A DNA stretch of 64,000 nt, taken from the NCBI GenBank assembly GCA_963736465.1, contig CAVTOS010000001.1, forward strand, positions 84,472-148,471. Direction: 5' to 3'. Positions 26,166 through 40,264 of this stretch are shown one piece after another. Under the pieces are notes generated by a model, which was given only the letters and a program-made list of their open reading frames with translations, was not told the origin of the DNA and did no database searches. Positions within the stretch are counted from its first letter, which is position 1, and each line of letters begins with the position of its first letter. Made by a program: the position numbers and the translations under genes. Source of the stretch: an uncultured Acidobacteriota bacterium. GTDB lineage: Bacteria; Acidobacteriota; Terriglobia; Acidiferrales; UBA7541.

Positions 26166-27671
26166 TTAATTCTTGCCTGACCCGGATCGCCTCGCCCAAA
26201 ACTTGCACAAGCCTTCCGCGGGCAGATCCGGCTGAAGCAACGCTGCCGGCTGGCCAAAATGCGTGAGCGTAGCTTCGGCTGCGAGATATCCGCTGCGCAC
26301 CGCGCCTTCCATCGTCGAGGGCCAGCCCGTTTGAGTCCAATCCCCAGCTAGAAAGAAATTGGAGATCGGCGTCGTTTGCGCCGGCCGCCAGCGGTCCACA
26401 CCGGGCTCTGGCGAAAAAGTCGCGTTCACTTCTTTGATCACCGTGGCCTTCAGCACATACGCTTCGCGCGTGGCAGGCAGCACATCCACCAGTTCGCGGC
26501 GGCAAAGCTCGATAATTTCCGCTCGTGAGCTCGGAACCAGATCGTAAGAAGCGCTGATCACCAGCTGCAAATACTGCCCTTCCTCGCCGCGGCGCCTTTC
26601 GACATGGACCTCTCCCCCGGGCGTTCCTTCGTTATGCCCGGTTGGACGCGCCTTCGAGCCATTCGTTTCGGCTCCGATCGAAAGCAGCGTCCGATTGAAA
26701 ATCCACTGCGTCGTATGGTCGAGTAGCGTCAGAAACGGCTCCGTCATCACCGTGCGATCGAACCAGAAATGCACGCTTGTAATCGGTGACGTTTTGATGT
26801 GCCGCAATCCTTCGAGCGGCGCTCCCGGTTCCGCCATCTCTCTTGGCGTCAGAGTGAGCAGAACGTCGTGCGGCACCGCTGCGATGCACGCATCCGCTTC
26901 CATCTCCGTGCCATCTTCGAGAATCGCACCAGCGAAGCGGTCGCCTTGCACGCACAGGCGGCGTACTCCGCAGCGCAACCGCACTTCGCCTCCGCGCCTC
27001 GCAATGGCCTCCCGGCAGCCCTCGTACAGTTCCGCCAGTGGCACCGAAGGAATTCCAACTCGATATCCGCGCGCGTTGCTCAGAAAGCCCTTCCAGAAAA
27101 CTTCAATTCCATACTTCGCATCCGTGCGCGCCAGTTCTTCATCGAGCGCGCTTACCAGCACCACGCGCCAGAATCGCTCGATCGCTCCCTGCGTCTGCCG
27201 CATCGAGCGCAGCCATTCGAGCATCGTCGAGCCATCCGCGCGCGGCGGATTCCCTCCTGCGCGAGCGATGGCTAACATCGCTTCTGCAATCGAACGCTTG
27301 TCCGCCAGCGTCAGCGCGTCGAACAACAAAAACGATGGCGCCATGTGCAGCGGCGGCGGCAGCGGCGATGCCTGAATTTCCGAACGCCTTCCTTCGCGAT
27401 CGACGAAATACAGCCGGTCGTAAAACCGGATCTTCTCGCTCGCTCCCACACGCCGGTAAAAATCCGCCAAGTTCGTGCAGCAGCCCAGCGTCACGTGCTG
27501 GCAATTGTCCACTTCGCTGCCGTCGGGCAGCGTGTAAGACGTAGCCCGCCCGCCGAGGTGGGGACGCTTCTCGAGCAGTTGAACGCGAAAGCCTGCGTCA
27601 GCCAGCGCGATGGCGGAGGACAGGCCCGCCAGGCCGCCGCCGATTACCAGGACGCTTTGCGAGGGCATCAC
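26166..27671 (-). CDS. hpnE: Hydroxysqualene dehydroxylase (FAD-dependent amine oxidase family)
   Basis: N-terminal Rossmann motif VIGGGLAGLSSAIALADAGFRVQLLEKRPHLGGRA. It lies directly after the squalene synthase-like genes in a hopanoid cluster. Confidence 0.8.
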   Translation of the reverse strand: MMPSQSVLVIGGGLAGLSSAIALADAGFRVQLLEKRPHLGGRATSYTLPDGSEVDNCQHVTLGCCTNLADFYRRVGASEKIRFYDRLYFVDREGRRSEIQASPLPPPLHMAPSFLLFDALTLADKRSIAEAMLAIARAGGNPPRADGSTMLEWLRSMRQTQGAIERFWRVVLVSALDEELARTDAKYGIEVFWKGFLSNARGYRVGIPSVPLAELYEGCREAIARRGGEVRLRCGVRRLCVQGDRFAGAILEDGTEMEADACIAAVPHDVLLTLTPREMAEPGAPLEGLRHIKTSPITSVHFWFDRTVMTEPFLTLLDHTTQWIFNRTLLSIGAETNGSKARPTGHNEGTPGGEVHVERRRGEEGQYLQLVISASYDLVPSSRAEIIELCRRELVDVLPATREAYVLKATVIKEVNATFSPEPGVDRWRPAQTTPISNFFLAGDWTQTGWPSTMEGAVRSGYLAAEATLTHFGQPAALLQPDLPAEGLCKFWARRSGSGKN

Positions 27672-29535
27672 CCTTCCACCAACCGGCCTTCTTTACCGCG
27701 AGGCCTGCTGCGAGGAGATATTGAACTTTTTCCGCGCTCGACAGCGAAACGCGCGAAGTGAACACGTCGAAGTGGCGTTCTTCCATCCGCGCCAGCAAAG
27801 TGCTGTACGTGCGCGCGAGCGCCCACAAAGTGGCGCGGCTGTCAGAATCGATTTGGCCGACGAGCGCGACGCCTTCTTCATAGAAGCGCCAGGCGCGCTC
27901 CGCTTCGAATTCGAGCAGCGCTTGCACACATTGCGTGAGCGGGCCTTGCAAATCGGCCTTGGTGCAGCCGAACCGCTCGAGATCTTCCTGCGGCAGATAG
28001 ACGCGGCCCATTTCGAGGTCGGCTTTCACATCGCGAATAATATTTGTTAGCTGAAATGCGAGGCCCAACCGTTCCGCAAGATCGGGATCGCGTGGATCGC
28101 GAAACCCAAAAACGTGCAGGCAGGTGAGTCCCACGGTTCCCGCCACACGGTAGCAATACTCAGAAAGCTGGTCGAATGTCGCGTAGCTGGCGACCGTTAA
28201 ATCCATTTCCGCACCCAAAATCAAGTCGTGGAAGTAGCGCGTAGGAATATTGAATCGCGCAATCGAATCGGCCAGGGCGGACAGAATCGCGTGGCCGCTC
28301 GTCTCGCCGGCGATGGCTTCATCGAGCATCCCGCGCCACCGCGCCAGCCCGCGCCGTTTCGCTTCAAGGTCGCCCGGCTCATCCGAAACATTGTCGATCA
28401 GCCGCATGAACGCATAGAGCGCAAACAACGCGTTTCGTTTGTCGCGCGGTAGCCCAAAAAATGCGAGATAGAAACTACTATGCGCACCTCGCGCAATCCG
28501 GTTGCATTCAGCGTAAGAATCACTAACTGTGATCGCGCCGTTTCCTGCCACACCTGAGCCTGTCCCGGATGATTCGCGTCGCATCCGCTGCGTTCCCTCG
28601 CAGGCGGCGGCTCGCTCGTCTCGATCCTTCGACGTCGCGCGGCCAGCCAGTGCGCGCGTGAGCAAACGGAGCTGCGTCCATTTCGTTAGCGCAGGCCGAT
28701 AGTTGAGCGTGTCGTATCCCGACGACTCGATCGCATCGAGGATCGCTAAGCCGCCGCGGCTGAACATTTCGATGTCAACGCGAATGGGACCTTCGACGCT
28801 ATCGACCAACGGCATTCCCGCTGCGAATAACTCTCGTGTGCGCGTAATCAAGTCTTTCATCAGGGATACATAGCGCTCGCTGAATCGACGCTCGACAATA
28901 TCCGCTTCCGTCAGCCCGTGCTCCGCGAGCGCTTCCAGCGGAATATAGACGCGTCCTTTTTCAAGGTCGCGCGAGACGTCTTGCCAGAAATTCGCTAGCT
29001 GTAACGCCGTGCAGGTGTAATCGGAGAGCTTCTGCCGCTCGGAGTCGCGATAGTCGCAGAGATACAGCACCAGACGGCCCACCGGGTTCGCCGAATACAC
29101 GCAGTAATCGAGCACGCTGTCCCAGGTGGCGTAGCGCTGCACGCGCTGGTCTTGTCGAAACGCCCGGAGCAGGTCGCTGAACGGCTTCTGCGGAATATCC
29201 TTGGCACGAATCGTTTCACGCATCGCAATCAGCACCGGATGCGACGGGCCGCGCTCGATCGAATAACACAACGCCAACTCTTCTTCCCATGCATCGAGCA
29301 GATCGAGAGCGCGTTGGTGATCCGGAATCTCGTCGCCGAGATCGTCCGACCAGCGGCAGTAAGCATACAGATTGTAAAAATGCGGGTGCAATCGCTTCGG
29401 CAGCAACCACGAGACCACGTTGAAATTCTCGTAGTGATGCGTGGCCAGCCAGCGCGTGTAGCGCTCGGCTTCGGTGGCGCTGCAGCCTTCAGCAGGGAGA
29501 TGGCGCGCGATTTCGAGTTCTGGTGTAGCTAACAC
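27598..29535 (-). CDS. Fused HpnC-HpnD (hydroxysqualene synthase + presqualene diphosphate synthase), two trans-IPPS head-to-head domains
   Basis: Two squalene/phytoene synthase domains in one 645-aa ORF: YAYCRWSDDLGDE...FWQDVSRD, then YAFMRLIDNVSDE...NIIRDVKAD. GTG start. The 3' end overlaps hpnE by 74 nt. Confidence 0.8.
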   Translation of the reverse strand: MLATPELEIARHLPAEGCSATEAERYTRWLATHHYENFNVVSWLLPKRLHPHFYNLYAYCRWSDDLGDEIPDHQRALDLLDAWEEELALCYSIERGPSHPVLIAMRETIRAKDIPQKPFSDLLRAFRQDQRVQRYATWDSVLDYCVYSANPVGRLVLYLCDYRDSERQKLSDYTCTALQLANFWQDVSRDLEKGRVYIPLEALAEHGLTEADIVERRFSERYVSLMKDLITRTRELFAAGMPLVDSVEGPIRVDIEMFSRGGLAILDAIESSGYDTLNYRPALTKWTQLRLLTRALAGRATSKDRDERAAACEGTQRMRRESSGTGSGVAGNGAITVSDSYAECNRIARGAHSSFYLAFFGLPRDKRNALFALYAFMRLIDNVSDEPGDLEAKRRGLARWRGMLDEAIAGETSGHAILSALADSIARFNIPTRYFHDLILGAEMDLTVASYATFDQLSEYCYRVAGTVGLTCLHVFGFRDPRDPDLAERLGLAFQLTNIIRDVKADLEMGRVYLPQEDLERFGCTKADLQGPLTQCVQALLEFEAERAWRFYEEGVALVGQIDSDSRATLWALARTYSTLLARMEERHFDVFTSRVSLSSAEKVQYLLAAGLAVKKAGWWKGDALAKRPGNRRRPGGPVLRHRAG

Positions 29536-29675
29536 GGTAGCTGACGCAGAGAGGTGCTTGCTTGCCTTTCGCTTGTACGTACTGATTCAGAACGAACTCG
29601 CTCTGTTCCCCGTTTTCGAACCAACCAGAGCGCTTGCGGATAAAAATTCGGGCCGCGGTGGCGCGGCAAAATCGC

Positions 29676-30734
29676 TTAAGGAATGATAGCAGTCTTCAAC
29701 TGGCCGTTGCGGTGCTTCATGTGCTCGAACACGGCCGGCAACTCCGCGAGCGGCACTTCCCCGGTGATGAAATCGCTGGCGCGAACTTCCCCGCGCGCGA
29801 TCGTTTCCAGAGCTTCACGCATGAATTGCGGCGTGTGATGGAATGTCGATTTGATGGTGATTTCCGAATAGTGAAGAGCGGCTGGATCGAACTCCACGTG
29901 CGAGCCTCGCGGACAGCCGCCGAAGAGATTTACGGTGCCGCCTTTGCGAGCCATCTGCACAGCCCACTGCCAGGTGGTCGCCGTTCCGACTGCTTCAATT
30001 ACAGCGTCCGCGCCGCGGCAGCCATCGCTCATTTCGCGGACGAGCCTCACCGGATTTTCAATTTCGCTGATATCGAATGCCGCCACCGCGCCCAGGCGTT
30101 CCGCCGCGCGAGTCTGCGATTTTCGCTTGCCCAGCGCAATTACGCCCACCCCGCGCGAGGAAAGCACGCGAACAAATTTCAACCCAATCGGGCCGCAACC
30201 GATCACGACGGCCGTATCACCGCTGCGGATGCCTGTTTCGTGAATGCCCCGCAAGACGCAGGCCAGCGGCTCAGCCATGGCCGCATCCACAAACGAGACG
30301 CCCTCGGGAATCTCGAGCATGTTCTGCCGAACGATTCTGCCGGGGATGCGGATGTATTCGGCATACGCGCCGTTGTTGAAGAGAAGATCTTCGCAGAGAT
30401 TTGGCTGGCCCTTGCGGCAGAAGAAGCACGTGTTGCAGGGCGCCGAATTCGCGGGCAGCACGCGCATGCCTTTGTGAACGCCGCCGTTTACCGAGCGGCC
30501 CTGCTCTTCGATCACGCCTGCCAACTCATGACCAAAAAGCGCGGGCGGCTTGATCATCCGGGCGTGGAAGCCCTGTTTCCAGACTTTCAGATCCGTGCCG
30601 CATGTCAGCGCCACTTCCACACGTACCAGCACTTCGTCATCGGCAACGCGAGGAATATCCACGCGTTCGATCTTTAGGTCTTCCCGGCCGTAGAGCACGG
30701 CCGCGTTCATATGTCCGTTTCTCTCTCGTCTCAT
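29676..30734 (-). CDS. Zinc-dependent medium-chain dehydrogenase/reductase (sorbitol/threonine dehydrogenase-like)
   Basis: Catalytic Zn ligands CGTD...GHELAG and structural Zn cluster CNTCFFCRKGQPNLC. Rossmann motif VIGCGPIG. Confidence 0.8.
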   Translation of the reverse strand: MRRERNGHMNAAVLYGREDLKIERVDIPRVADDEVLVRVEVALTCGTDLKVWKQGFHARMIKPPALFGHELAGVIEEQGRSVNGGVHKGMRVLPANSAPCNTCFFCRKGQPNLCEDLLFNNGAYAEYIRIPGRIVRQNMLEIPEGVSFVDAAMAEPLACVLRGIHETGIRSGDTAVVIGCGPIGLKFVRVLSSRGVGVIALGKRKSQTRAAERLGAVAAFDISEIENPVRLVREMSDGCRGADAVIEAVGTATTWQWAVQMARKGGTVNLFGGCPRGSHVEFDPAALHYSEITIKSTFHHTPQFMREALETIARGEVRASDFITGEVPLAELPAVFEHMKHRNGQLKTAIIP

Positions 30735-31837
30735 TGGTGCGTGATCACTACTTTTAGCGTACCATCCACGGGCCTTGCCGCCAACTCCAGCGCGTCCGCG
30801 ATGCGCTCGAGCGGAAACCGGTGGGAGATCATCTCCCGTATCGGCAAGCGCCGCTCGAACACGAGCGCCGCAGACTCTTCCTGATCGTCTGCCGAAGCGC
30901 TGTAACTTCCCAGGATTTCTTTTTCTTCCACCCCAACGGCAGCGGCAGGAAATTCCAATCGCGTCACCGGGTCGTTATGAGCAAACAATAGCACGCGCCC
31001 GCCTGGCCGTGCGATAGCCAGCGCTTCAGAGACTAATGACGGGTTGGGCACCGCCACCAGGACGGCGTCCGCCCCTCGTCCGGAAGTGCGGCGGCGCATC
31101 TCGTCCAGCAAATTGGCGCTTTTGGGATCGAACGATTCCGCAGCTCCAAAGCGCAGGCTCGCGGCGCGGCGGCCGGGCATCGGGTCGCTCGTGAAAACCT
31201 CAGCGCCTTCATACTTTGCGAGAAGCATCAGCAGCATTCCGATGGGCCCTTGACCGATCACCAGCACAGTTTCGCCGGGCGCGACACGCGCTTTGCGAAC
31301 CGCTTTGAGGCAAGTATTCACAGGCTCGATGAAGGTGGCGTCTTCGAAGATGACGTCGGGAGGCAGCGCGATCATTCCGCGTTCGACGACCCACGGCATC
31401 GCGCGTACGTATTCCGCGAACCCGCCGCCGTTAGGATCGAAGCCGGCTGTGAGACCGGTTTTCTTGTATCCCGCGCACTGCGAGAACAGCTTGCGCTCGC
31501 AGTAGAAGCACGCGCCGCATGGAACATGATGAAAGCTCATCACGCGGTCGCCGGATTTGAATTTCTTCACGCCCGCGCCCACTTTCACCACGGTACCCGC
31601 AAGTTCGTGGCCCAGAATTTGCGGCGGCACGACGTAGCCGTGCTCGATTTTCTTGATGTCCGTGCCACAAATCCCGCACGCGGCGACGCGGAAGAGCACT
31701 TCGCCTTCGCCAATTTCCGGGACGGGGACGGATTCTACGACCACGCGTCCTTTGCCGCGATAGACGCCCGCGCGCATGTGGCCGAGGGAGCCGATTGGCC
31801 TGTGTGCGGGGTCGATTTGGGTGGTTGTGTGGCTCAT
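30731..31837 (-). CDS. Zinc-dependent medium-chain dehydrogenase/reductase (second paralog)
   Basis: CGICGTD...GHELAG, CGACFYCERKLFSQC and VIGQGPIG. ATGA overlap with the downstream MDR gene. Confidence 0.8.
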   Translation of the reverse strand: MSHTTTQIDPAHRPIGSLGHMRAGVYRGKGRVVVESVPVPEIGEGEVLFRVAACGICGTDIKKIEHGYVVPPQILGHELAGTVVKVGAGVKKFKSGDRVMSFHHVPCGACFYCERKLFSQCAGYKKTGLTAGFDPNGGGFAEYVRAMPWVVERGMIALPPDVIFEDATFIEPVNTCLKAVRKARVAPGETVLVIGQGPIGMLLMLLAKYEGAEVFTSDPMPGRRAASLRFGAAESFDPKSANLLDEMRRRTSGRGADAVLVAVPNPSLVSEALAIARPGGRVLLFAHNDPVTRLEFPAAAVGVEEKEILGSYSASADDQEESAALVFERRLPIREMISHRFPLERIADALELAARPVDGTLKVVITHQ

Positions 31838-31851
31838 TTTCCGGTCATCAA

Positions 31852-31966
31852 AATCGCATTTTATTTGCGATTAGAAATTTTTAGGTCCTTTTATTTCAGC
31901 TACTTGACCTCAATTCTAATTCCAGATTTGCGATTAGAAATTTGGCATTGGCCTGCTCTAATCGCA
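31852..31966. promoter_or_regulatory. AT-rich leader with four TGCGATT(A) half-sites upstream of the MDR-MDR-hpnCD-hpnE genes
   Basis: ATTTGCGATTAGAAATTT occurs at 31863-31880 and 31926-31943 (18/18). AATCGCA at 31852-31858 and 31960-31966 is the inverted half-site. The first pair forms AATCGCA-N7-TGCGATT. Confidence 0.45.
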
Positions 31967-31989
31967 ACAATTGTCTCTCGCACCGTTGC

Positions 31990-32751
31990 TCAAACCGACA
32001 GAGCGGCGGCCTTCGCGTTTTCGCTCAGGGGAGGGTTTGTTGCCGAAAGCACAAACGAATCAAGCACCCTCGCCAAGTTTGCGGCCGCCCTCTCGCTATC
32101 GTTTGCTAGCCTAAGCAACCCTCCCACCTTCGAAGGGTGTTTCGCAAGTTGACCGATCACTTTGGGAATACTGACCGCTCCCTGTTCATTGAAAACACGA
32201 CTGAAATCCAACGGCAAATTCGAATCAACCGTGTCACTTACCGACCGAATAGCAATACCGGGGACGCAGCGATCAGCGGCCGCACTCAGAACCCAAAAGC
32301 TCTCCATATCCACAGCGTCCGCATGACTACCAAGCTTTCGCTTCTCTTCAGAATCAGCGACCACGTGATCTGAGGTCAGAAATCGGTCGACCAATTTCGC
32401 TCCCGCAGCAGCAGCGGTCGCAAGCAAATCTGGGTGACCCGGATGCGACTTCGCTCCATTGCCGTCCGTGACGTTCCGGGCCACAAGAGTTTTTGCAAGA
32501 GAATGCTCCGGCCGCAAAGCTCCCGACAAACCGGATACTATGCAGACGTCTGGTAGTTCTTCAAAAGCGATCCCTGCGGCTCGCTGCGCGGCGAACCGGC
32601 CTGCACCAGTGAGGAACACTCGGACGTAGGCTTCTCCAATCTGCTCTCGATAGGAATGGTCCCATTGATCCGTGGTCACGCGCTTGAAACCACGCATCCT
32701 TCGCCAAGGGGCGAATTCGTTTTCGAGGGCGAATGTGACCAGTATCTTCAT
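31990..32751 (-). CDS. hpnG: Hopanoid-associated phosphorylase (adenosylhopane nucleosidase, PNP_UDP_1 family)
   Basis: Nucleoside phosphorylase fold motifs (SGLSGAL, AVDMES), with cluster context between hpnA and the squalene genes. Confidence 0.75.
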   Translation of the reverse strand: MKILVTFALENEFAPWRRMRGFKRVTTDQWDHSYREQIGEAYVRVFLTGAGRFAAQRAAGIAFEELPDVCIVSGLSGALRPEHSLAKTLVARNVTDGNGAKSHPGHPDLLATAAAAGAKLVDRFLTSDHVVADSEEKRKLGSHADAVDMESFWVLSAAADRCVPGIAIRSVSDTVDSNLPLDFSRVFNEQGAVSIPKVIGQLAKHPSKVGGLLRLANDSERAAANLARVLDSFVLSATNPPLSENAKAAALSV

Positions 32752-32826: not shown

Positions 32827-33879
32827 CTACGCCGCGGCGGCGTGTACCGTCGGTACGCTCGCCGCTTTGCCGCGGATGTAGCCGTGGGCTTCGTACCAGC
32901 GGACGGCGCGCTCGAGAGCGGCTTCGACTGACGTTGGGTGGTAGCCCAATTCCCTTTCGGCTTTGTCGCTCTCGACGAACATGCGATGGCGCGACATTTT
33001 CACGCCTTCGACTGGAATTTGCGGTTCGCGTCCGCGGAGGCGCGCGAAAAATTCGTCCGCGTAGCCGGCGGCGAGCGCGACGGCATGCGGCAAGCGCACG
33101 CGGGGAGCGGGGCGCCCGACGATGGCCGCGAGCATGTCCAAGATCTGTTTTAGAGTGAGATTGCGCGAGCCGAGAATGTAACGTTCGCCAATGCGGCCTT
33201 TTTCGGCTGCGAGTAGATGACCGGCGGCGACGTCTTCGACGGCCACTACGTTCAAACCCGTATCTACGTATGCGGGCATCTTGCCGTTCAGAAAGTCAAG
33301 GATGATTTTCCCGGTGGGCGTCGGCTTCCAATCGCAAGGGCCAATCGGTGCGGTGGGATTGACGATGACCACCGGCACGCCCTCTTGTGCGGCGCGAATC
33401 GCTTCCTGCTCGGCCATGAATTTCGAGCGTTTATAATGGCCGATCATTTCGCCCAGCTCGGATTGAGTTGCCTCGTTGGGCAGGGCGCCGTGGCGCGGAA
33501 CCGCGATCGTTGCAACGGTGCTGGTGTAAACGATCCGTTCGACTCCGGCGCGCTGTGCCGCTTCGAGCAGCTTGCGCGTGCCTTCCACGTTGCTTTCGTA
33601 GATTTCTTCGGGATGAGCCGACCAGAGCCGGTAATCAGCGGCGACGTGGAAGACGCGACGGACGCCGCGCATGGCGCGTTCGATCGAAGCTGCGTCGCGC
33701 AAATCGCCTTCGGCGCGTTCGATCGGGAGGTCTGCAAGAATGTCCGCATTGCTGGTCGTTTTATCTGTCACCTTGCCGGCGACTCGGCAGAAGATACGGA
33801 CTTCGTGTCCCTGGTTAACGAGCAACCGGGCGACGTGGCTTCCCACGAACCCTGTGGCTCCGGTAACGAGCGTGGTCAT
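32827..33879 (-). CDS. hpnA: Hopanoid-associated NAD-dependent sugar epimerase/dehydratase family protein
   Basis: MTTLVTGATGFVGSHV Rossmann motif and SDR YxxxK (YKRSK). ATGA overlap with hpnH. Confidence 0.75.
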   Translation of the reverse strand: MTTLVTGATGFVGSHVARLLVNQGHEVRIFCRVAGKVTDKTTSNADILADLPIERAEGDLRDAASIERAMRGVRRVFHVAADYRLWSAHPEEIYESNVEGTRKLLEAAQRAGVERIVYTSTVATIAVPRHGALPNEATQSELGEMIGHYKRSKFMAEQEAIRAAQEGVPVVIVNPTAPIGPCDWKPTPTGKIILDFLNGKMPAYVDTGLNVVAVEDVAAGHLLAAEKGRIGERYILGSRNLTLKQILDMLAAIVGRPAPRVRLPHAVALAAGYADEFFARLRGREPQIPVEGVKMSRHRMFVESDKAERELGYHPTSVEAALERAVRWYEAHGYIRGKAASVPTVHAAAA

Positions 33880-35048
33880 AAAATGCGGAAAACTTCGTCT
33901 CCCTGCTGTGCAGGCGCCACGGGAATCACGCGCTTCGGAACGTTTCCGTTGCCGGAGCCGTTACCGTGGCCATTCGAATGGCCATTGCCATGGCCGTTAG
34001 CTTTTTTCTCGCGTTCGGTGGGTTCACCGAGAAGGCCGCCCATTTTGCCGGAGACGGTCCAGCTGAGCATCTTCCAGGTGTCACCGAGCTTCTTGTTGCC
34101 GCCGAGTACTGCGGACGCCTCGTATCCCGCGTGAACCATGCAATCTTCGCAGCGGGGATCGCGGCCGCGGCCGTATTTCTCCCAGGGCGTCTGTTCGATG
34201 AAGTCTTTGAAATTGTCGTGATGCGCGTCCGTCATCAGGTAGCAAGGGCCTTTCCAGCCGCGCGGGTTGTACGTGGGGTTGCCCCAGGCCGTGCACATCA
34301 ACTCGCGCTCGCCTCGGAGATATTCCATGTAGATGGGCGACGTGACGATGTTGTAGCGCTCGAGCAGCTTGTAGGCCTGGCGGAATTTGTCGCGGATTTC
34401 ATCGCGAGACATGAAAATTTCCTTGGTCATCACCGCAGCGTAGGAATAGGCCGGCGAAAGCATGTGGCCATCGACGCCAAGCGTTTGCAAATACGCGAAA
34501 AGATCGGCGATCTCTTCGATGTCTGTCTCTTTGTAAATTGTGGTGTTGGAAGTGACGAGAAATCCGGCAGCTTTGGCTGCCTTGATGCCTTCGATTGCTT
34601 CGCGGAATACGCCATCGCGCTCGACGCAGATATCGTGAGTCTTTTCGAGGCCGTCGAGGTGAACGTTGAAGAACAGGCGCGACGTTGGCGTGAAGTCGCT
34701 GAGGTGCTTGCGAATGAACATACCGTTGGTGCAAAGGTAGATGTGCTTTTTGCGGGCAAGAATTTCGTTGGTCAGGCGGCCAATTTCGGGGTAAATCATC
34801 GGCTCGCCGCCGCAGATAGAAACGATCGGAGCGCCGCAATCGTCAACAGCCTTCAGGCACTGCTCGACCGTGAGCATCTCGTTGATTGTGGACTTGTATT
34901 CGCGAATGCGGCCGCAGCCAGTGCAAGTAAGATTGCAGGCGTGGAGCGGCTCGAGCATCATCACCAGCGGAAACTTCTGCGCCCCAGTGATGCTCTTGCG
35001 AGCGAGATAACCCGTCATGCTCGCAGTGAGGCTGAAAGGAACTCTCAT
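33876..35048 (-). CDS. hpnH: Adenosylhopane synthase (radical SAM)
   Basis: LEPLHACNLTCTGCGRIREY CxxxCxxC motif and overall HpnH-like sequence. ATGA overlap with shc. It has an unusual NGH/GNG repeat tail. Confidence 0.85.
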   Translation of the reverse strand: MRVPFSLTASMTGYLARKSITGAQKFPLVMMLEPLHACNLTCTGCGRIREYKSTINEMLTVEQCLKAVDDCGAPIVSICGGEPMIYPEIGRLTNEILARKKHIYLCTNGMFIRKHLSDFTPTSRLFFNVHLDGLEKTHDICVERDGVFREAIEGIKAAKAAGFLVTSNTTIYKETDIEEIADLFAYLQTLGVDGHMLSPAYSYAAVMTKEIFMSRDEIRDKFRQAYKLLERYNIVTSPIYMEYLRGERELMCTAWGNPTYNPRGWKGPCYLMTDAHHDNFKDFIEQTPWEKYGRGRDPRCEDCMVHAGYEASAVLGGNKKLGDTWKMLSWTVSGKMGGLLGEPTEREKKANGHGNGHSNGHGNGSGNGNVPKRVIPVAPAQQGDEVFRIL

Positions 35049-37087
35049 CCATTACCCCCGTCTTTAATTAGATGCTTTATTTCCTCGGCGGGAATCTGCA
35101 AAGCGAAAGATTTGCGCCGGCCTTTGCGCATGTTGTCGAAGCGCGCGAGCGCGTAGAGCGGAAACGAATTTCGGTAGAGGTGATATTTCAAATAGAAGAC
35201 GCACGGAAAACCAGTGCCGGTGAATTCCACTTCATCCCAAGAGCCGTCTTCATTTTGATTCTCGGTGAGCCACGCGGCAGCGCGTTCGGAAGCCGGATTG
35301 TTGGGGCCAACCGTTGCAAGCAGGCCGATCAGAGCCCACGCTGTTTGCGATGCGGTGCTCTTGCCTTTGCCTTTCAGCGCTGGATCGTAATAGGAAAGAA
35401 TGGATTCGCCGAAGCCGCCGTCGGGATTCTGCACCGAGCGAAACCAATTCGCGGCGCGTTGACAATCCGGATCGGACGACAGCCCGACCGTTTCAAGGGC
35501 GCGCAAGACGCCGCTCGTTCCGTAGAGATAGTTCACGCCCCAGCGGCCATACCAAGAGCCGTCTGGTGTTTGATCGTGCTTGATGAAATCACGCGCGCGA
35601 TCCACGACAGGATGATTCGCGGACCAACCAAACTGCCCGAGACATTCGAGGACGCGCGCCGTAACGTCGGCAGTGGAAGGATCGAGCATCGCGTTGTGGT
35701 CGGCAAACGGAATGTGATTCAGGAACTGGAGATTGTTCTCGTGGTCGAATGCGCCCCAGCCGCCGTCGCTATTCTGCATGCTGACGAGCCAGGCAAGACC
35801 GCGGCGGATCGCGCCGCGCAGCGGAGCTGAATCGGGATCGGCGACGCGACCAAGCGCCATCAGGACGAACGCGGTGTCGTCCACATCGGGATAGAAATCA
35901 TTTTGAAACTCGAATGCCCAGCCGCCCGGCGCAGCCCTTTTATTTTTAACCTGCCAATCGCCAGGGCCGAGAATCTGATTCTTGAGCACCCAACGCTCCG
36001 CAGCAACCAACGCGGGATGTGACGGATCGAGCCCCGCTTCTTCAAGCGAAACCATCGCGATGGCCGTATCCCAGACCGGCGAAATGCAGGGCTGAACGCG
36101 AATCGTGCGGCCTCTCTCGTCTTCGACTTCGTAGCGCTCGAGAAACTTGATTTCGCGGTGAAGCAGCGGATCGTCCACATCGCGCGATTCTGCGAGCAGC
36201 GCGAAAATCGAATTCATCATGGCTGGGTAGATGGTTCCCAGGCCTTCGCTGCGTTCAAGGCGGTCCATCATCCATTTTCGCGCGCGAGCCAGGCACAACT
36301 TTCGAAAAGGCTTCCACGAAGAACGCTCGTAGAGCTTCAAGCCTCGTTCGAGCGCGAGAAAGGCATTGCGCCAGGTAAAGACGCTCTTATCCCAGGCAAA
36401 CGACGCCGGTCTCTGCCCCGGAACTTTGAATAGATCGGTGACTGTGACGTCCGCCGGCAGCGGCCATTTCGGCTTGTTGGCGTAAACGATCGCGAGAGGA
36501 ACGACGATTCCGCGCGTCCACGATGACATTTCGTAGAGATTCAGCGGGAACCAATCCGGCAAAAGCATCATCTCCGGAGGAATCGAGGGGACCATGTCCC
36601 AGCTAATGGCGCCGACCATCGCGAGATAGAACCGAACGTAGGAATTCGTGGCTTCGAGGCCGCCAAGGTCCAGTACTTTTTGCTTCGCGCGCTGCATGTG
36701 CGGCGCATTTGCGGGATCGCCAGCCAGACGAAGCGCGACATAAGCCTTCACCGTGGCATTCAGCTCGGAAGGGCCACCGTAGAAGATGTACCAGCCGCCG
36801 TCTTCAAGTTGCCGTTCGCGGATATAGCGCGCCAGCTTGGCGGTTTTCTCGGATTTAAGCTGACCCAGGATATGCAGGTAGAGAATATAATCGGATTCGA
36901 GCGTAGTATCCGCTTCGAGCTCGCCCCACCAGTAGCCTTCCTGAGCCTGCGCGGATAACATCCAGTCGCGGCTGCGGGAAATGGCCTGTTCGACGAGAGA
37001 TTCGAGGTTGCGGGTTTGAACAACCGCTGTGGCCTGGCTCGCTCCGCTGTGGGAAGTCTCTATACGCAGTCTTGCTTCCGGTGTCAT
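35045..37087 (-). CDS. shc: Squalene-hopene cyclase
   Basis: DVDDTAFV catalytic motif and multiple QW repeats (e.g. QNPDGGFGE, QNSDGGWGAF, QLEDGGWY). ATG 37087 has a GAGGGA RBS; the ORF-track start at 37243 is probably too long. Confidence 0.9.
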   Translation of the reverse strand: MTPEARLRIETSHSGASQATAVVQTRNLESLVEQAISRSRDWMLSAQAQEGYWWGELEADTTLESDYILYLHILGQLKSEKTAKLARYIRERQLEDGGWYIFYGGPSELNATVKAYVALRLAGDPANAPHMQRAKQKVLDLGGLEATNSYVRFYLAMVGAISWDMVPSIPPEMMLLPDWFPLNLYEMSSWTRGIVVPLAIVYANKPKWPLPADVTVTDLFKVPGQRPASFAWDKSVFTWRNAFLALERGLKLYERSSWKPFRKLCLARARKWMMDRLERSEGLGTIYPAMMNSIFALLAESRDVDDPLLHREIKFLERYEVEDERGRTIRVQPCISPVWDTAIAMVSLEEAGLDPSHPALVAAERWVLKNQILGPGDWQVKNKRAAPGGWAFEFQNDFYPDVDDTAFVLMALGRVADPDSAPLRGAIRRGLAWLVSMQNSDGGWGAFDHENNLQFLNHIPFADHNAMLDPSTADVTARVLECLGQFGWSANHPVVDRARDFIKHDQTPDGSWYGRWGVNYLYGTSGVLRALETVGLSSDPDCQRAANWFRSVQNPDGGFGESILSYYDPALKGKGKSTASQTAWALIGLLATVGPNNPASERAAAWLTENQNEDGSWDEVEFTGTGFPCVFYLKYHLYRNSFPLYALARFDNMRKGRRKSFALQIPAEEIKHLIKDGGNG

Positions 37088-37438
37088 CAATCCCTCAGAT
37101 ATATTTTCGGTCCTTATCGGCCCATTTGGAAATTGCAGCTGCAGCCAGGCACCGCCGCTTTCACCTAAAATGGACGGCCAAGCCCCTTTGTCGCACTGCT
37201 TACTTCGCTGCCCTGCGGAGGGCATCAGAACCGGGCGTCCCATTGCTTGCCCGTCCTGACCGCCGCGTCCGCTTACCCGGCTTCCCCACTAGCCAGTCTA
37301 TGGGACGTTTTGTGAGCTGAAAAACGCTCGGTAAAAACCCTTTGGCCTCACTACACAGCATCAACTGTTCCGTAACACTAACATTATGTTCGGCTTTGGC
37401 TCGCCGGTCAACTGAATTTCCATGTCGCGTGTCCAAAC

Positions 37439-38083
37439 TTATGATGCTGGCAGCCGGGAAATGATGCCTGACAAAAATTGCCCCAATTCGGGCGGCAGGG
37501 GCGATCCGATTGGTTGAAGAAATCGCGGTTTGGCCATGGCTGCGAGAGATTGAAATCGTGCGTCTGAGTCATCAAACGGCGAACGGAACACGAAGGCGTC
37601 GGCTCGCAGGAGATTTTCGCGAGCAGAAACCTTGAAATCCGGATTCGCGGGATCCAGCACCATAAGGAACAGCGAAGGCTTCCAGAATCTCATTAAGGCG
37701 TCGCTTTCGATTGAGGCGTGGCCAGCGTTTGCCAACTCGGCCGCCAGTGATGGAAGCGCATTTTGCAGGCGATGCTCTTTCGTTTCGATCCATAGGGCCC
37801 GGTGGGCTCCGGCAGCCAGGAAGCGAGAGCTGTCCGAGTTACCGCTGCGGCTGGTTTCCTCGCGAATTGCGTAGGAGTGCTCTTCCGGCGGGCAATTGCA
37901 CGCGGGACCTCTCACCGGGCAGCCCGATTCGGCGTAAGGAGTGATCTTGACGGCTGTCCAATGCCGATTCGGGAAAGCTTGGATGATGTCGGCGACTAAC
38001 GCGGTCTTCCCGACTTTACGGCATTGGCCTCCTACGGCCAACAGGAAGCCGCGACATGGGGGTGGGGTGCGACTCGCGGTCAT
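37439..38083 (-). CDS. Hypothetical protein with a degenerate P-loop (MobB-like?)
   Basis: VGGQCRKVGKTALVADII resembles a Walker A segment but lacks the canonical first Gly spacing. It sits between lpxD and shc. Confidence 0.4.
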   Translation of the reverse strand: MTASRTPPPCRGFLLAVGGQCRKVGKTALVADIIQAFPNRHWTAVKITPYAESGCPVRGPACNCPPEEHSYAIREETSRSGNSDSSRFLAAGAHRALWIETKEHRLQNALPSLAAELANAGHASIESDALMRFWKPSLFLMVLDPANPDFKVSARENLLRADAFVFRSPFDDSDARFQSLAAMAKPRFLQPIGSPLPPELGQFLSGIISRLPAS

Positions 38084-38128: not shown

Positions 38129-39172
38129 TCATCGATCCGTCTTGGAGAATATCTGTTTCGCTGGCGGCGCTGTTTCCAATTTGCGGATGCGCTCGGCCAA
38201 CTCCGGCAGGCGGGCGAACCAGGCGTACTGTTCCTTAAACTTCTCGAGCGGGCGAGCTGGAGTGCCCCAGACGGTTTGACCCCTGCGGATTGTCTTGCCC
38301 GTCGGAATCCCGGCTTGGGCGCCGGCGATCGCGCCATCTTCGAGTTTGCAGTGATCGGCGATGCCGACTTGTCCGCCGATTATGGCGCGCTTCCCTATCG
38401 AGGTGCTGCCAGAAATTCCCGTTTGCGCCGCGATGACCGTGTGCTCGCCGATGTGGACGTTGTGCGCCACTTGCACGAGATTATCTATTTTTACTCCGGC
38501 GGCGATTTGAGTGGTTTCGAGAGAGCCGCGATCAATGGTGGTGTTCGCGCCGATTTCCACGTCGTCGGCGATTTCGATTCGGCCGACTTGCGGGAATTTC
38601 CAGTAGCGGCCTTCGCCGAAGACGTAGCCGAAGCCGTCACTGCCGATGACGGCGCCGGAATGGACTTCCACGCGATCGCCGAGGCGCGCGCCGGCGTAGA
38701 GCGTGACGCGCGGATGCAAAATGCAATTCGCGCCGATGCGCGAGGCGCGGCCTATGAATGCGTGCGCGCCTATTGCGGTGCCCGCGCGGATCTCGACTTG
38801 TTCTTCGATCACGGCGTATGGACCGATGGAAACATTTTCGGCGATCTTGGCCGTCGGAGACACGATCGCGGTCGAATGAATGCCGGATTTTGGCGTAACG
38901 CGCGGTAAGAGCCATGTTGCTGCTTTCGCGAAGGCGAATTTCGGATCGGCGACTTCGAGGATTGTCTTGCCAGCTGCGCGAGCGTTCGGAGGAGCCAGCA
39001 CGCATTTCGCAGCTGATTTCTCGACGCGTGCAGCAAATTTGGGCGCGTCGAGGTAGATAAGGTCGGTGGCTGTTGCGCTTTCAGGCGCGGCGACGCCTGT
39101 GAGCGCGAGGCTTCCGTCACCTTGCAATTTCGCGCCAAGATATTTCGCGAGTTCAGCGGCTGTGTGATTCAT
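38129..39172 (-). CDS. lpxD: UDP-3-O-acylglucosamine N-acyltransferase
   Basis: N-terminal LpxD domain ([13 protein letters not shown]...) followed by long hexapeptide (LbH) repeats. I chose ATG 39172 so the gene does not overlap its upstream neighbour. Confidence 0.85.
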
Positions 39173-39243
39173 GTGAACCTCTTTCGATGTCCTGATTTGC
39201 GAAGAATTGTCGCACGCCGATCGTTTCAATAAGGTTCGCGAAG

Positions 39244-40149: not shown

Positions 40150-40264
40150 CGCGCGTCATTATGCAAGAGGCTCTAGAGCCGATGCCAGCGATGTGTGATG
40201 AAAGAGTGTTTGCCCGGATGTTAGACTCGGCGGGCCTACGAGAACGAAGCACGATGAACATACA

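What the first reader, a model, noticed from the sequence alone, without database searches (positions are those of the whole stretch)
29676..31837. Two translationally coupled zinc polyol-type dehydrogenases inside the hopanoid cluster: candidates for the unassigned ribosylhopane to bacteriohopanetetrol reductase
The minus-strand gene order is shc-hpnH-hpnA-hpnG-[MDR]-[MDR]-hpnCD-hpnE. HpnH makes adenosylhopane and HpnG removes adenine to give ribosylhopane. To my knowledge the NAD(P)H-dependent reduction of the open-chain ribosyl aldehyde to bacteriohopanetetrol has no assigned enzyme. Both inserted genes are sorbitol/threonine-dehydrogenase-like MDRs with intact catalytic and structural zinc ligands, so they are polyol/aldehyde oxidoreductases. 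They sit immediately downstream of hpnG and share an ATGA overlap. Their own AT-rich leader carries repeated operator-like sites. HpnA, an SDR, is an alternative candidate. The link is by position only.
Basis: partly seen in the sequence, partly recalled or inferred. Interest (0 to 1): 0.72.

Follow-up and report, generated by a model that had tools for sequence, protein, structure and literature searches.

The report
Paired zinc dehydrogenases in hopanoid cluster
Two neighbouring zinc-dependent sugar-alcohol-type dehydrogenase genes are kept together inside the hopanoid (bacterial "sterol") gene cluster across Acidobacteria; the link was already noted in 2017, their function is still unknown, and they are plausible but unproven candidates for the missing enzyme that makes bacteriohopanetetrol.

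Summary
Two paralogous (30% identical) Zn-dependent MDR genes lie at 30731-31837 and 29676-30734 (minus strand) between hpnG and a fused hpnCD. They have intact zinc ligands, an ATGA stop/start overlap and a 38%-GC leader carrying three copies of an 11-mer.

They match "ug1" (~370 aa) and "ug2" (~350 aa), the function-unknown Zn-ADHs that Sinninghe Damsté et al. (2017) described beside hpnA-hpnG and hpnC. The association itself is therefore published.

My survey of about 175 related loci shows a strictly conserved pair. MDR2 directly follows MDR1 in 78/78 genome loci, and 65% have an NTGA overlap. Predicted cofactor preferences are opposite and conserved: MDR1 NAD, MDR2 NADP. The pair sits in hpn clusters in about 90% of loci, including Armatimonadota and a low-GC lineage.

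The linkage is as tight to hpnCDE as to hpnG/hpnH. The same pair, with the same conserved residues, occurs in Vicinamibacteria, which are reported to lack shc/hpnH/hpnG. BHT producers such as C. thermophilum lack it.

The ribosylhopane-reductase idea is therefore only partly supported. It is best recast as a lineage-specific candidate, MDR2 rather than MDR1, and needs biochemical testing.

The parts
30731..31837 (-). MDR1 (= 'ug1'): 368-aa Zn-dependent medium-chain dehydrogenase with a predicted NAD(H)-type cofactor pocket (Asp218). Residues 1-17 form a disordered N-terminal tail.
   Evidence: Pfam and NCBIfam. Ligands and D/E218 conserved in 95/95 orthologues. AF2 pLDDT 88 with the tail below 50. 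Foldseek TM about 0.8 to Tdh, ketose reductase and 4ej6. The ATG plus AGCCA at the start is conserved even where the leader diverges.
29676..30734 (-). MDR2 (= 'ug2'): 352-aa Zn-dependent medium-chain dehydrogenase, 30% identical to MDR1, with a predicted NADP(H)-type pocket (Gly202-Lys203-Arg204).
   Evidence: G202 in 75/89, K/R203 in 78/89 and R204 in 81/89 orthologues. These residues align with A-R-S of the NADP(H) ketose reductase 1e3j and with S-T-R of 4ej6/4ejm.
30731..30734 (-). ATGA stop/start overlap of MDR1 and MDR2 (translational coupling).
   Evidence: Sequence. The same NTGA overlap occurs in 107/165 orthologous pairs, including distant lineages.
31838..31989 (-). AT-rich (38% GC) leader between hpnG and MDR1. 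It carries three copies of TTGCGATTAGA/TCTAATCGCAA: an 18-nt direct repeat at 31863-31880 and 31926-31943, and an inverted copy at 31957-31967. These are operator-like sites.
   Evidence: The motif cores are conserved in the close relatives L002 and L001, and partly in L005, while the flanks vary. They are absent in more distant relatives, where hpnG abuts MDR1.
29652..29667 (-). Terminator-like GC hairpin followed by a T-run, directly after the MDR2 stop. With the leader, it suggests that MDR1-MDR2 is a separate bicistronic unit in this organism.
   Evidence: Consensus scan only.
31990..32751 (-). HpnG-like PNP_UDP_1 nucleosidase/phosphorylase (adenosylhopane -> ribosylhopane).
   Evidence: PF01048; TIGR03468 at 108 bits, below the cutoff of 187.
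32827..33879 (-). HpnA (extended SDR, hopanoid-associated).
   Evidence: TIGR03466 at 479 bits.
33876..35048 (-). HpnH radical-SAM adenosylhopane synthase.
   Evidence: TIGR03470 at 436 bits.
35045..37243 (-). Squalene-hopene cyclase.
   Evidence: TIGR01507 at 782 bits.
27598..29535 (-). Fused HpnC-HpnD (hydroxysqualene synthase plus presqualene diphosphate synthase).
   Evidence: TIGR03464 covers residues 31-296 and TIGR03465 covers 349-610. The same fusion is described for subdivision-2 Acidobacteria.
26166..27671 (-). HpnE hydroxysqualene dehydroxylase.
   Evidence: TIGR03467 at 450 bits.

Best explanation
These genes are the acidobacterial 'ug1/ug2' genes. They form an ancient, co-inherited and usually translationally coupled pair of paralogous Zn-dependent polyol/ketose-type MDR oxidoreductases. 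The pair acts as one two-step redox module, or as a hetero-oligomer, and belongs functionally to the squalene/hopanoid gene cluster.

Most likely the module works on the ribose-derived polyhydroxylated C5 side chain of C35 hopanoids.
- MDR2 has the NADP-type pocket and would be the NADPH-dependent reductase. It would turn the open-chain carbonyl of ribosylhopane into bacteriohopanetetrol.
- MDR1 has the NAD-type pocket and would be a NAD+-dependent dehydrogenase. It would re-oxidise a side-chain hydroxyl for further tailoring, such as a keto intermediate or epimerisation. This would be an aldose -> polyol -> ketose couple.

Shown here: enzyme class, intact active sites, opposite cofactor signatures, obligate pairing, and conserved synteny with hpn genes.

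Inferred: that the synteny is functional, the identity of the substrate, the direction of each reaction, and any physical complex.
For: Enzyme class and intact, invariant zinc sites.

Obligate pairing:
- MDR2 lies directly downstream of MDR1 in 78/78 genome loci with downstream DNA (read; one search's tally of 70/78 drops eight loci where the tblastn hits abut with a 0-nt gap) and in 66/69 metagenome loci.
- The NTGA overlap occurs in 107/165 pairs.
- The MDR1 and MDR2 trees are each monophyletic and roughly congruent.

Opposite cofactor signatures are conserved across the families: D/E218 in 95/95 MDR1; G-K/R-R in about 85% of MDR2, aligned to the NADP-binding A-R-S of 1e3j.

Synteny with hpn genes:
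- It persists through rearrangements and down to 41-50% identity. Arrangements seen include hpnA-hpnG-MDR1-MDR2-hpnC..., hpnA-MDR1-MDR2-hpnC-shc, and shc-hpnH-hpnA-hpnG-MDR1-MDR2 without hpnCD.
- The same linkage appears in a 47%-identical lineage (hpnA-hpnG-MDR1-MDR2), in a 39%-GC lineage (MDR1-MDR2-hpnC-hpnD with hpnH nearby) and in Armatimonadota.
- hpnG abuts or overlaps MDR1 in several lineages (L014, L015, L020). One metagenomic fragment reads as an HpnG-MDR1 fusion (P0357).

Chemistry: the nearest outgroup of MDR1 includes MDRs fused to a sugar-phosphate nucleotidyltransferase (P0259). That is the TarI/TarJ-type architecture that makes CDP-ribitol from ribulose-5-phosphate (architecture comparison from my own knowledge). 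BHT is formally a 5-substituted ribitol.

The reduction step remains unassigned in the literature. The Damsté group itself listed ug1/ug2 as hopanoid-associated genes of unknown function.
Against: All linkage evidence is positional. Most of it comes from one phylum, so shared ancestry inflates the counts.

The pair is at least as tightly linked to hpnC/D/E as to hpnG/hpnH. In Armatimonadota and in L113 only hpnCDE is nearby.

Orthologous pairs occur with no hpn gene within 10 kb:
- Vicinamibacteria: WYL-QueF-Pro_dh-MDR1-MDR2.
- A marine lineage, L087 and L107.
- These pairs keep most family-specific conserved residues: 51/77 for MDR1 and 70/91 for MDR2, with conservative differences.

Subdivision 6 (Vicinamibacteria) is reported to have hpnCDE but no shc/hpnH/hpnG and to make no hopanoids.

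BHT is made by organisms without these genes: C. thermophilum lacks ug2, and alphaproteobacterial clusters hold no such candidate.

The closest characterised relatives (ketose reductase/sorbitol DH, Tdh, galactitol-1-P DH, IolM) act on secondary alcohols and ketones, not aldehydes.

There is no membrane-binding feature; the N-terminal tail is simply disordered.
Confidence: 0.35

Rival explanations
1. The pair is a stand-alone polyol/ketose or amino-alcohol catabolic (or NADH/NADPH-balancing) couple acting on a soluble substrate, for example pentose -> pentitol -> pentulose. Its place in the hopanoid cluster would then be an ancestral accident, retained mainly by descent within Acidobacteriota or carried along when the cluster was transferred.
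For: - The pair occurs as a self-contained two-gene unit in unrelated contexts: QueF-Pro_dh-MDR1-MDR2 next to nucleoside phosphorylases and a nucleoside transporter in Vicinamibacteria; DUF2950|pair|TPR in a marine lineage; YjbQ|pair; heparinase/enolase|pair-methyltransferase-PEMT; and a threonine-aldolase-like gene just upstream in Armatimonadota.
- Non-hpn pairs keep the family-specific residues.
- In this window the pair has its own AT-rich leader with operator-like sites and a terminator-like hairpin, which suggests separate regulation.
- The closest relatives are soluble sugar/polyol and threonine dehydrogenases.
- Subdivision 6 makes no hopanoids.
Against: - Gene order normally decays fast without selection. 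Here the pair stays inside hpn clusters down to about 41-50% protein identity, through several different rearrangements, and in at least three deep lineages.
- In many lineages hpnG and MDR1, and MDR2 and hpnC, abut or overlap, which implies co-transcription.
- No sugar transporter, kinase or sugar-responsive regulator accompanies the pair in the hpn-linked loci.
Confidence: 0.3
2. The pair serves the HpnC/HpnD/HpnE squalene branch rather than side-chain formation. It might act on an alcohol or carbonyl intermediate or side product of that route, such as hydroxysqualene or farnesol/farnesal-type compounds, or supply reducing power to it.
For: - hpnC is the commonest immediate downstream neighbour: 60/66 genome loci and 41/45 metagenome loci.
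- In Armatimonadota, L113 and several Terriglobales-type loci only hpnCDE is adjacent.
- In L090 MDR1-MDR2-hpnC-hpnD overlap start to stop.
- hpnCD-linked lineages are basal in the MDR1 tree.
- The phylogenetic profile fits: subdivision 6 has hpnCDE and the pair but no shc/hpnH/hpnG.
Against: - The three-enzyme HpnCDE route is complete without an NAD(P)-dependent step, by established biochemistry (Pan et al. 2015, as cited).
- Most HpnCDE-bearing bacteria lack the pair. Only about a dozen 50%-identity clusters score as family members.
- Polyol-type MDRs are poor matches for long hydrophobic substrates.
- In Vicinamibacteria the pair is not next to hpnCDE.
- Several loci keep the pair with shc-hpnH-hpnA-hpnG and no hpnCD (L026, L037-L039, L047).
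Confidence: 0.15
3. Ribosylhopane is reduced by HpnA or by an unlinked housekeeping aldo-keto or aldehyde reductase. The MDR pair is hopanoid-related but only tailors BHT afterwards, for example by oxidation/reduction epimerisation of a side-chain hydroxyl to give BHT stereoisomers, or by forming a keto group for amination.
For: - A conserved NAD-type plus NADP-type couple is the classic layout for epimerisation by oxidation and re-reduction (the layout comparison is from my own knowledge).
- HpnA is adjacent in nearly all loci and was proposed for the reduction by Damsté et al..
- BHT is made widely without the pair.
- Relatives of these enzymes act on secondary alcohols.
Against: - HpnA is reported to be dispensable for BHT in B. 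cenocepacia and is absent from some BHT producers.
- No unusual BHT isomer or keto/amino derivative is documented for Acidobacteria in the papers read. Rohmer degradation, as used there, erases such detail.
- The subdivision-6 distribution problem applies here as well.
Confidence: 0.15

Closest known systems
ug1 / ug2 of Acidobacteria (Sinninghe Damsté et al. 2017, Front Microbiol 8:968, PMC5462960)
   Same: - Same sizes: Zn-dependent ADH of about 370 aa and Zn-binding ADH of about 350 aa.
- Same positions: hpnA-hpnG-ug1 and ug2-hpnC-hpnD-hpnE.
- Same phylum.
- The hpnC-hpnD fusion typical of subdivision 2 is also present here.
   Different: Nothing distinguishes the genes themselves; this is the same gene pair. 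This analysis adds several points:
- The strict pairing and translational coupling.
- The opposite cofactor signatures.
- The spread of the pair to Armatimonadota and other lineages.
- Its occurrence outside hpn clusters.

The paper left the function 'not established' and proposed HpnA for the ribosylhopane reduction.
NADP(H)-dependent ketose reductase / sorbitol dehydrogenase (PDB 1e3j; human SDH 1pl6)
   Same: - MDR fold, catalytic Cys-His-Glu zinc site and structural zinc.
- MDR2 shares the small-residue-plus-Arg/Lys NADP pocket.
- It is the best or second-best PDB sequence hit for both proteins, and Foldseek TM is about 0.82.
   Different: - Only 25-30% identity.
- There is no equivalog-level family match.
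- A Lys replaces the usual His after the CG(T/S)D motif in both proteins.
- The substrate is unknown.
- These enzymes act at C2 of free hexitols, whereas the proposed substrate is a lipid-linked pentose.
L-threonine 3-dehydrogenase (TIGR00692; PDB 2dfv, 2dq4)
   Same: It is a top structural and sequence neighbour with the same zinc architecture. MDR1 is NAD-type, like Tdh.
   Different: - Scores of 146/132 bits are far below the 458-bit cutoff.
- There is no kbl partner.
- The proteins come as a pair of paralogues.
scyllo-inosose 3-dehydrogenase IolM (NF041097)
   Same: It is the best-scoring NCBIfam model for both proteins.
   Different: Scores of 169/154 bits fall far short of the 450-bit cutoff, and no inositol catabolic genes are nearby.
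Xylose reductase / xylitol dehydrogenase couple and TarJ ribulose-5-phosphate reductase (functional analogies, from my own knowledge)
   Same: - The couple pairs an NADPH-dependent reduction of a pentose carbonyl to a pentitol with a NAD+-dependent Zn-MDR polyol dehydrogenase.
- TarJ is a Zn-MDR that makes a 5-substituted ribitol.
- A nucleotidyltransferase-MDR fusion (P0259) is among the nearest outgroups.
   Different: - These are analogies only.
- Xylose reductase is an aldo-keto reductase, not an MDR.
- No activity data exist for the present proteins.

Membership tests
Zn-dependent medium-chain dehydrogenase/reductase (MDR), polyol-DH/Tdh-like branch | GroES-like ADH_N domain plus a Rossmann ADH_zinc_N domain with GxGxxG | tested here: met
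   PF08240 and PF00107 match both proteins. The AF2 model of MDR1 has TM 0.8-0.86 to MDR structures.
Zn-dependent medium-chain dehydrogenase/reductase (MDR), polyol-DH/Tdh-like branch | Catalytic zinc ligands (Cys, His, Glu/Glu) and four-Cys structural zinc site | tested here: met
   Present in both proteins. Invariant or >=97% conserved across 95 and 89 orthologues.
ug1/ug2 hopanoid-cluster Zn-ADHs of Acidobacteria (Damsté 2017) | Zn-ADH of about 370 aa directly after hpnA-hpnG, and Zn-ADH of about 350 aa directly before hpnC | tested here: met
   Sizes are 368 aa and 352 aa, with the order hpnA-hpnG-MDR1-MDR2-hpnCD. Definition taken. The sequence identity to the published loci was not checked directly.
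L-threonine 3-dehydrogenase (TIGR00692) | Score at or above the curated equivalog cutoff (458 bits) | tested here: not met
   146 and 132 bits.
scyllo-inosose 3-dehydrogenase IolM (NF041097) | Score at or above the curated cutoff (450 bits), with an iol gene context | tested here: not met
   169 and 154 bits; no iol genes in the window.
Sorbitol / L-iditol 2-dehydrogenase (the automatic JGI name, K00008) | Close similarity to characterised SDH, and activity on hexitols | tested here: inconclusive
   Identity to 1pl6/1e3j is only 25-30%. The name comes from automatic annotation. Activity is not testable here.
Ribosylhopane reductase (activity known from cell-free work, no sequence family) | NADPH-dependent reduction (the cofactor requirement is from my own knowledge of Bodlenner et al. 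2015) | tested here: inconclusive
   MDR2 has an NADP-type pocket and MDR1 an NAD-type pocket. This is a sequence inference only.
Ribosylhopane reductase (activity known from cell-free work, no sequence family) | Co-occurrence with hpnH/hpnG in BHT producers and absence from non-producers | tested here: not met
   The link is strong in Terriglobia. However:
- The pair is present in Vicinamibacteria, a class reported to lack shc/hpnH/hpnG.
- It is absent from C. thermophilum.
- It is absent from alphaproteobacterial hpn clusters.

Whole-genome profiles were not computed here.
Ribosylhopane reductase (activity known from cell-free work, no sequence family) | Catalytic conversion of ribosylhopane to bacteriohopanetetrol | not testable with these tools
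   Needs an enzyme assay or genetics.
Heteromeric MDR complex | Physical association of the two subunits | not testable with these tools
   The evidence is indirect only: obligate adjacency, start/stop overlap and congruent trees. The apparent MDR1-MDR2 fusion P0210 looks like a frameshift artefact.

The most novel reading that the evidence does not exclude
MDR2 is the long-sought NADPH-dependent ribosylhopane reductase, at least in Acidobacteriota and allied lineages. It works with MDR1 as a co-translated NADP/NAD redox couple that converts the ribosyl side chain aldose -> polyol (BHT) -> keto-polyol. The same module processes ribose released by nucleoside phosphorylases in lineages without hopanoids. 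That would explain why the pair lies near a PNP_UDP_1-family enzyme in both contexts: HpnG here, and a purine nucleoside phosphorylase in Vicinamibacteria.
Probability: 0.2. Interest if true: 0.75.

Novelty: new member of a known kind. Interest (0 to 1): 0.5.

Why it matters
The reduction of ribosylhopane to bacteriohopanetetrol is the one core step of C35 hopanoid biosynthesis with no assigned enzyme. BHT and its isomers are widely used geochemical biomarkers.

A conserved, cluster-embedded pair of polyol-type oxidoreductases gives two concrete proteins to express and assay. The cofactor prediction says which one to try first: MDR2 with NADPH.

The survey also limits the claim. The pair cannot be the universal enzyme. 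It may instead belong to the squalene branch or to a general pentose/polyol route. Experiments should therefore include those substrates, and genome-based predictions of BHT production should not yet rely on these genes.

Tried and rejected
1. An exact-sequence look-up of the window's MDR1 found no record, so the source contig could not be identified. The nearest relatives are 'Ca. Acidiferrales' MAGs.

2. Gene-fusion ('Rosetta stone') evidence is weak.
- P0357 (HpnG C-terminus plus MDR1) is a single 249-aa fragment, and hpnG already abuts MDR1 in some genomes, so it may be a lost stop or a sequencing error.
- P0210 (MDR1+MDR2, 609 aa) lacks similarity across the junction and looks like a frameshift.
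- P0505 (Pro_dh+MDR1) is likewise unverified.
- Other N-terminally extended fragments (P0323, P0262 and others) showed no HpnG similarity.

3. The AF2 model of MDR2 was poor (pLDDT 51, shallow alignment) and was not used. The MDR1 model and Foldseek returned only generic MDR neighbours and gave no substrate clue.

4. The leader motif was searched for elsewhere in the window as a possible regulon marker. It was not found. Among 95 loci it occurs exactly only in L002, plus one unrelated hit.

5. Liu et al. 2014 and Bodlenner et al. 2015 could not be read. The NADPH requirement is therefore cited from memory.

6. Single MDR1-like genes without a partner (cyanobacterial L089; L103, L108, L127) were treated as paralogues or secondary losses and were not interpreted further.


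Full report
**1. What is there**

The minus strand of the window carries these genes:

| Coordinates | Gene |
|---|---|
| 35045-37243 | shc |
| 33876-35048 | hpnH |
| 32827-33879 | hpnA |
| 31990-32751 | HpnG-like PNP_UDP_1 gene (TIGR03468 108 bits, below its cutoff of 187) |
| 30731-31837 | MDR1, 368 aa |
| 29676-30734 | MDR2, 352 aa |
| 27598-29535 | fused hpnC-hpnD |
| 26166-27671 | hpnE |

Both MDRs have ADH_N plus ADH_zinc_N domains. Neither reaches the cutoff of any NCBIfam equivalog. The best hits are IolM (169/154 bits against 450) and Tdh (146/132 against 458). The two proteins are 30% identical paralogues.

Zinc ligands:
- MDR1: catalytic C57, H77, E78, E171; structural C107, C110, C113, C121.
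- MDR2: catalytic C45, H69, E70, E155; structural C100, C103, C106, C114.

The genes overlap by ATGA.

The hpnG-MDR1 spacer is 152 nt long and 38% GC, against 58% for the window. It contains an 18-nt perfect direct repeat and a third, inverted copy of the 11-mer TTGCGATTAGA. No other copies exist in 64 kb, and none of 100 shuffles reaches that number. The motif cores are conserved in the closest relatives (L002, L001, partly L005) while the flanking bases vary.

A terminator-like hairpin follows MDR2. In this organism the pair therefore looks like its own bicistronic unit inside the cluster.

**2. Already in the literature**

Sinninghe Damsté et al. 2017 (PMC5462960) described two clusters for subdivision 1/3 Acidobacteria:
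- 'cluster C', hpnA-hpnG-ug1;
- 'cluster A', ug2-hpnC-hpnD-hpnE.

Their Table S1 lists ug1 as 'Zn-dependent alcohol dehydrogenase (ca. 370 AA)' and ug2 as 'Zn-binding alcohol dehydrogenase (ca. 350 AA)', both with function 'not established'. They also noted hpnC-hpnD fusions in subdivision 2. MDR1 and MDR2 match ug1 and ug2 in size, position, phylum and the hpnC-hpnD fusion.

For the ribosylhopane-to-BHT step they proposed HpnA, not ug1 or ug2. I found no paper that assigns this step or links it to these genes. A 2025 Geobiology paper and a 2026 review still call the enzyme unknown or the step non-enzymatic.

**3. Survey of relatives**

*How narrow the family is.* Close homologues (>=80% identity) are abundant in 'Ca. 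Acidiferrales'/Acidobacteriota metagenome bins. In a library of 1.84 billion representatives, only about a dozen full-length 50%-identity clusters score 270-360 bits. Below that lies a plateau of generic MDRs at <=235 bits. The family is therefore narrow.

*Genome and metagenome loci.* A scan of GTDB species genomes returned 80 loci with 49-90% identity, essentially all Acidobacteriota. A JGI metagenome scan seeded with distant members returned 80 more. I mapped the window's Hpn proteins onto them with tblastn:

| Measure | Genome loci | Metagenome loci |
|---|---|---|
| MDR2 orthologue directly follows MDR1 | 78/78 (read) | 66/69 |
| At least one hpn gene present (both flanks available) | 70/72 | 35/40 |
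| hpnA/G/H/shc within 1.5 kb upstream | 74/78 | 50/62 |
| hpnC/D/E/shc within 1.5 kb downstream | 60/66 | 41/45 |

One search's script printed 70/78 for the first row. That figure is an artefact of its gap filter, which excluded the eight loci where the two tblastn hits abut with a 0-nt gap.

*Rearrangements.* The pair survives several different arrangements:
- hpnA-MDR1-MDR2-hpnC-shc;
- shc-hpnH-hpnA-hpnG-MDR1-MDR2 without hpnCD;
- MDR1-MDR2-hpnCDE with hpnA/shc several kb away on the other strand.

*Distant representatives (41-49% identity)*:

| Lineage or locus | Context |
|---|---|
| L084 | hpnA-hpnG-MDR1-MDR2 |
| L090 (39% GC) | MDR1-MDR2-hpnC-hpnD with overlapping stops and starts, hpnH alongside |
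| L093 (Armatimonadota) | threonine-aldolase-like gene, MDR1-MDR2, 89-aa ORF, hpnC-hpnD-hpnE; no shc or hpnH within 10 kb |
| L085, L095 (marine) | stand-alone pair |
| L087 | stand-alone pair |
| L089 (cyanobacterial) | single MDR, probably a paralogue |

*Tree.* A neighbour-joining tree shows MDR1 and MDR2 each monophyletic against generic MDRs. The two trees are roughly congruent, and the hpnCD-linked lineages branch near the base.

**4. The exceptions matter**

In Vicinamibacteria (L054, L058, L096, and probably L081, L126, L164) the orthologous pair (about 54%/51% identity) lies in a WYL-regulator, QueF, Pro_dh, MDR1, MDR2 arrangement. Divergently upstream are a pyrimidine-nucleoside phosphorylase, a nucleoside transporter and a PNP_UDP_1 purine nucleoside phosphorylase. 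No hpn gene lies within 10 kb.

Damsté et al. report that subdivision 6 (this class), both in culture and in metagenomes, has hpnC/D/E but no shc, hpnH or hpnG, and makes no hopanoids. I could not check the individual genomes.

The columns that are >=97% conserved in hpn-linked proteins are mostly retained in the non-hpn pairs (51/77 for MDR1, 70/91 for MDR2). The differences are conservative and come mainly from the marine group. The chemistry is therefore probably the same everywhere.

The converse also holds. C. thermophilum makes BHT and BHT cyclitol ether but lacks ug2. A study of 48 Alphaproteobacteria found no candidate genes near hpn clusters beyond hpnA, B, L and M.

**5. Clues to mechanism**

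*Cofactor.* MDR1 orthologues carry Asp or Glu at the end of the second Rossmann strand in 95/95 sequences. By established MDR structure-function rules this is the NAD(H) signature.

MDR2 orthologues carry Gly (75/89) followed by Lys/Arg (78/89) and Arg (81/89) at the same place. This aligns with A-R-S of the NADP(H)-dependent whitefly ketose reductase 1e3j, and with S-T-R of 4ej6/4ejm, its best PDB hit.

The pair is therefore a conserved NAD/NADP couple.

*Coupling.* An in-frame start overlapping the MDR1 stop by 4 nt is available in 107/165 pairs, and by 1 nt in 13 more. This points to translational coupling and roughly equimolar synthesis. That would fit a complex or two consecutive steps, but is inference only.

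*Fold.* The AF2 model of MDR1 is confident (pLDDT 88) apart from a disordered 17-residue N-terminal tail. It is an ordinary MDR: TM about 0.8 to Tdh, E. coli ECK1772 (5vm2), 4ej6, ketose reductase and AibC. No membrane-binding element is apparent.

*Outgroup.* Among the nearest outgroups is an MDR fused to a sugar-phosphate nucleotidyltransferase (P0259). From my own knowledge this resembles the TarI/TarJ architecture for CDP-ribitol synthesis. BHT is chemically a 5-substituted ribitol.

**6. Interpretation**

A functional tie between the pair and the squalene/hopanoid cluster is likely. Synteny is conserved to about 41-50% identity, through rearrangements, and in at least three deep lineages.

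Which step the pair serves is open. The side-chain reading is chemically attractive:
- the enzymes are polyol-type;
- MDR2 has an NADP-type pocket, matching the NADPH-dependent activity known from cell-free work;
- hpnG is adjacent or overlapping.

I rank this first, with MDR2 rather than MDR1 as the reductase candidate and MDR1 as a NAD+-dependent partner that re-oxidises a hydroxyl. I give the side-chain role about 0.35, and about 0.2 for 'MDR2 is the ribosylhopane reductase'.

Three things keep the rivals alive: the equal or tighter linkage to hpnCDE, the occurrence of the pair in a class said to lack hopanoids, and its absence from other BHT producers. The rivals are:
- a soluble pentose/polyol or amino-alcohol couple retained in the cluster by descent (0.3);
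- a role in the squalene branch (0.15);
- post-BHT tailoring such as epimerisation (0.15, partly overlapping the first).

One lead could reconcile the contexts. In both, a PNP_UDP_1-family enzyme that releases a ribosyl moiety is nearby: HpnG here, and a purine nucleoside phosphorylase in Vicinamibacteria. That evidence is weak, because the Vicinamibacteria genes are in a divergent neighbouring operon.

**7. Verdict**

- The gene association is already published.
- The functional hypothesis is apparently unpublished, is testable, and is now sharpened: try MDR2 with NADPH first; test the pair together; include squalene-branch and pentose substrates.
- The pair cannot be the universal BHT-forming enzyme.

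Noticed in passing
window 27598-29535 (-): [quoted passage not shown] Damsté et al. reported this fusion as typical of uncultured subdivision-2 Acidobacteria. In more distant relatives the two halves are separate genes. The annotated hpnE ORF overlaps the fusion's 3' end by 74 nt, so the hpnE start is uncertain.
   Followed up: partly
window 38129-41938: Lipid A genes lie immediately beyond shc: lpxD (38129-39310) and an lpxL-type acyltransferase (39244-40149). A divergent ArnT/PMT-like glycosyltransferase is at 40265-41938. PMT_2-type glycosyltransferases also lie near the MDR pair in Armatimonadota (L093), a marine lineage (L095) and L103. This could be chance or an envelope-lipid theme.
   Followed up: partly
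window 37439-38083 (-): A 214-aa ORF directly upstream of shc has no Pfam or NCBIfam match. It is conserved at the same position (46-66% identity) in several related loci (L001, L002, L005, L009, L021, L029, L041, L044, L161). It may be an uncharacterised hopanoid-cluster gene.
   Followed up: partly
window 31857-31967; L002 9901-9974: The operator-like 11-mer TTGCGATTAGA has two direct copies and one inverted copy, and contains a TTCTAAT/ATTAGAA palindrome. It is conserved only in the closest relatives. No regulator gene was identified, and the motif occurs nowhere else in the window.
   Followed up: partly
L096 3588-12110; L054, L058, L081: In Vicinamibacteria the MDR pair is the tail of a conserved WYL-regulator, QueF, Pro_dh, MDR1, MDR2 arrangement. 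It faces a divergent operon of pyrimidine-nucleoside phosphorylase, nucleoside transporter and PNP_UDP_1 phosphorylase. One database protein (P0505, 630 aa) reads as a Pro_dh-MDR1 fusion.
   Followed up: partly
P0259 (602 aa), P0357 (249 aa), P0210 (609 aa): Fusion-like database entries:
- P0259: a sugar-phosphate nucleotidyltransferase fused to an MDR 38% identical to MDR1 (TarI/TarJ-like).
- P0357: an HpnG C-terminus fused to an MDR1-like N-terminus.
- P0210: an MDR1(117-333)-MDR2 read-through that looks like a frameshift.
   Followed up: partly
window 44441-45712 (-): A 423-aa LPG_synthase_TM / flippase-like membrane protein, in the same Pfam family (PF03706) as the AglD/lysyl-PG-synthase-like protein to which the hopanoid-associated HpnL has been compared. 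It matched only the generic TIGR00374 model; no HpnL model appeared among its NCBIfam hits.
   Followed up: no
L093 8946-9977 and 7377-8003: In the Armatimonadota locus a threonine-aldolase-type PLP enzyme (Beta_elim_lyase, 321 bits) sits directly upstream of MDR1. A fatty-acid-hydroxylase/sterol-desaturase-family gene lies 2 kb upstream. Neither is seen in the acidobacterial loci.
   Followed up: no
L107 9989-13803: In one metagenomic lineage the pair is followed by a SAM methyltransferase and a PEMT/ICMT-like membrane methyltransferase instead of hpn genes. A heparinase II/III gene and an enolase-superfamily gene lie upstream on the opposite strand.
   Followed up: no
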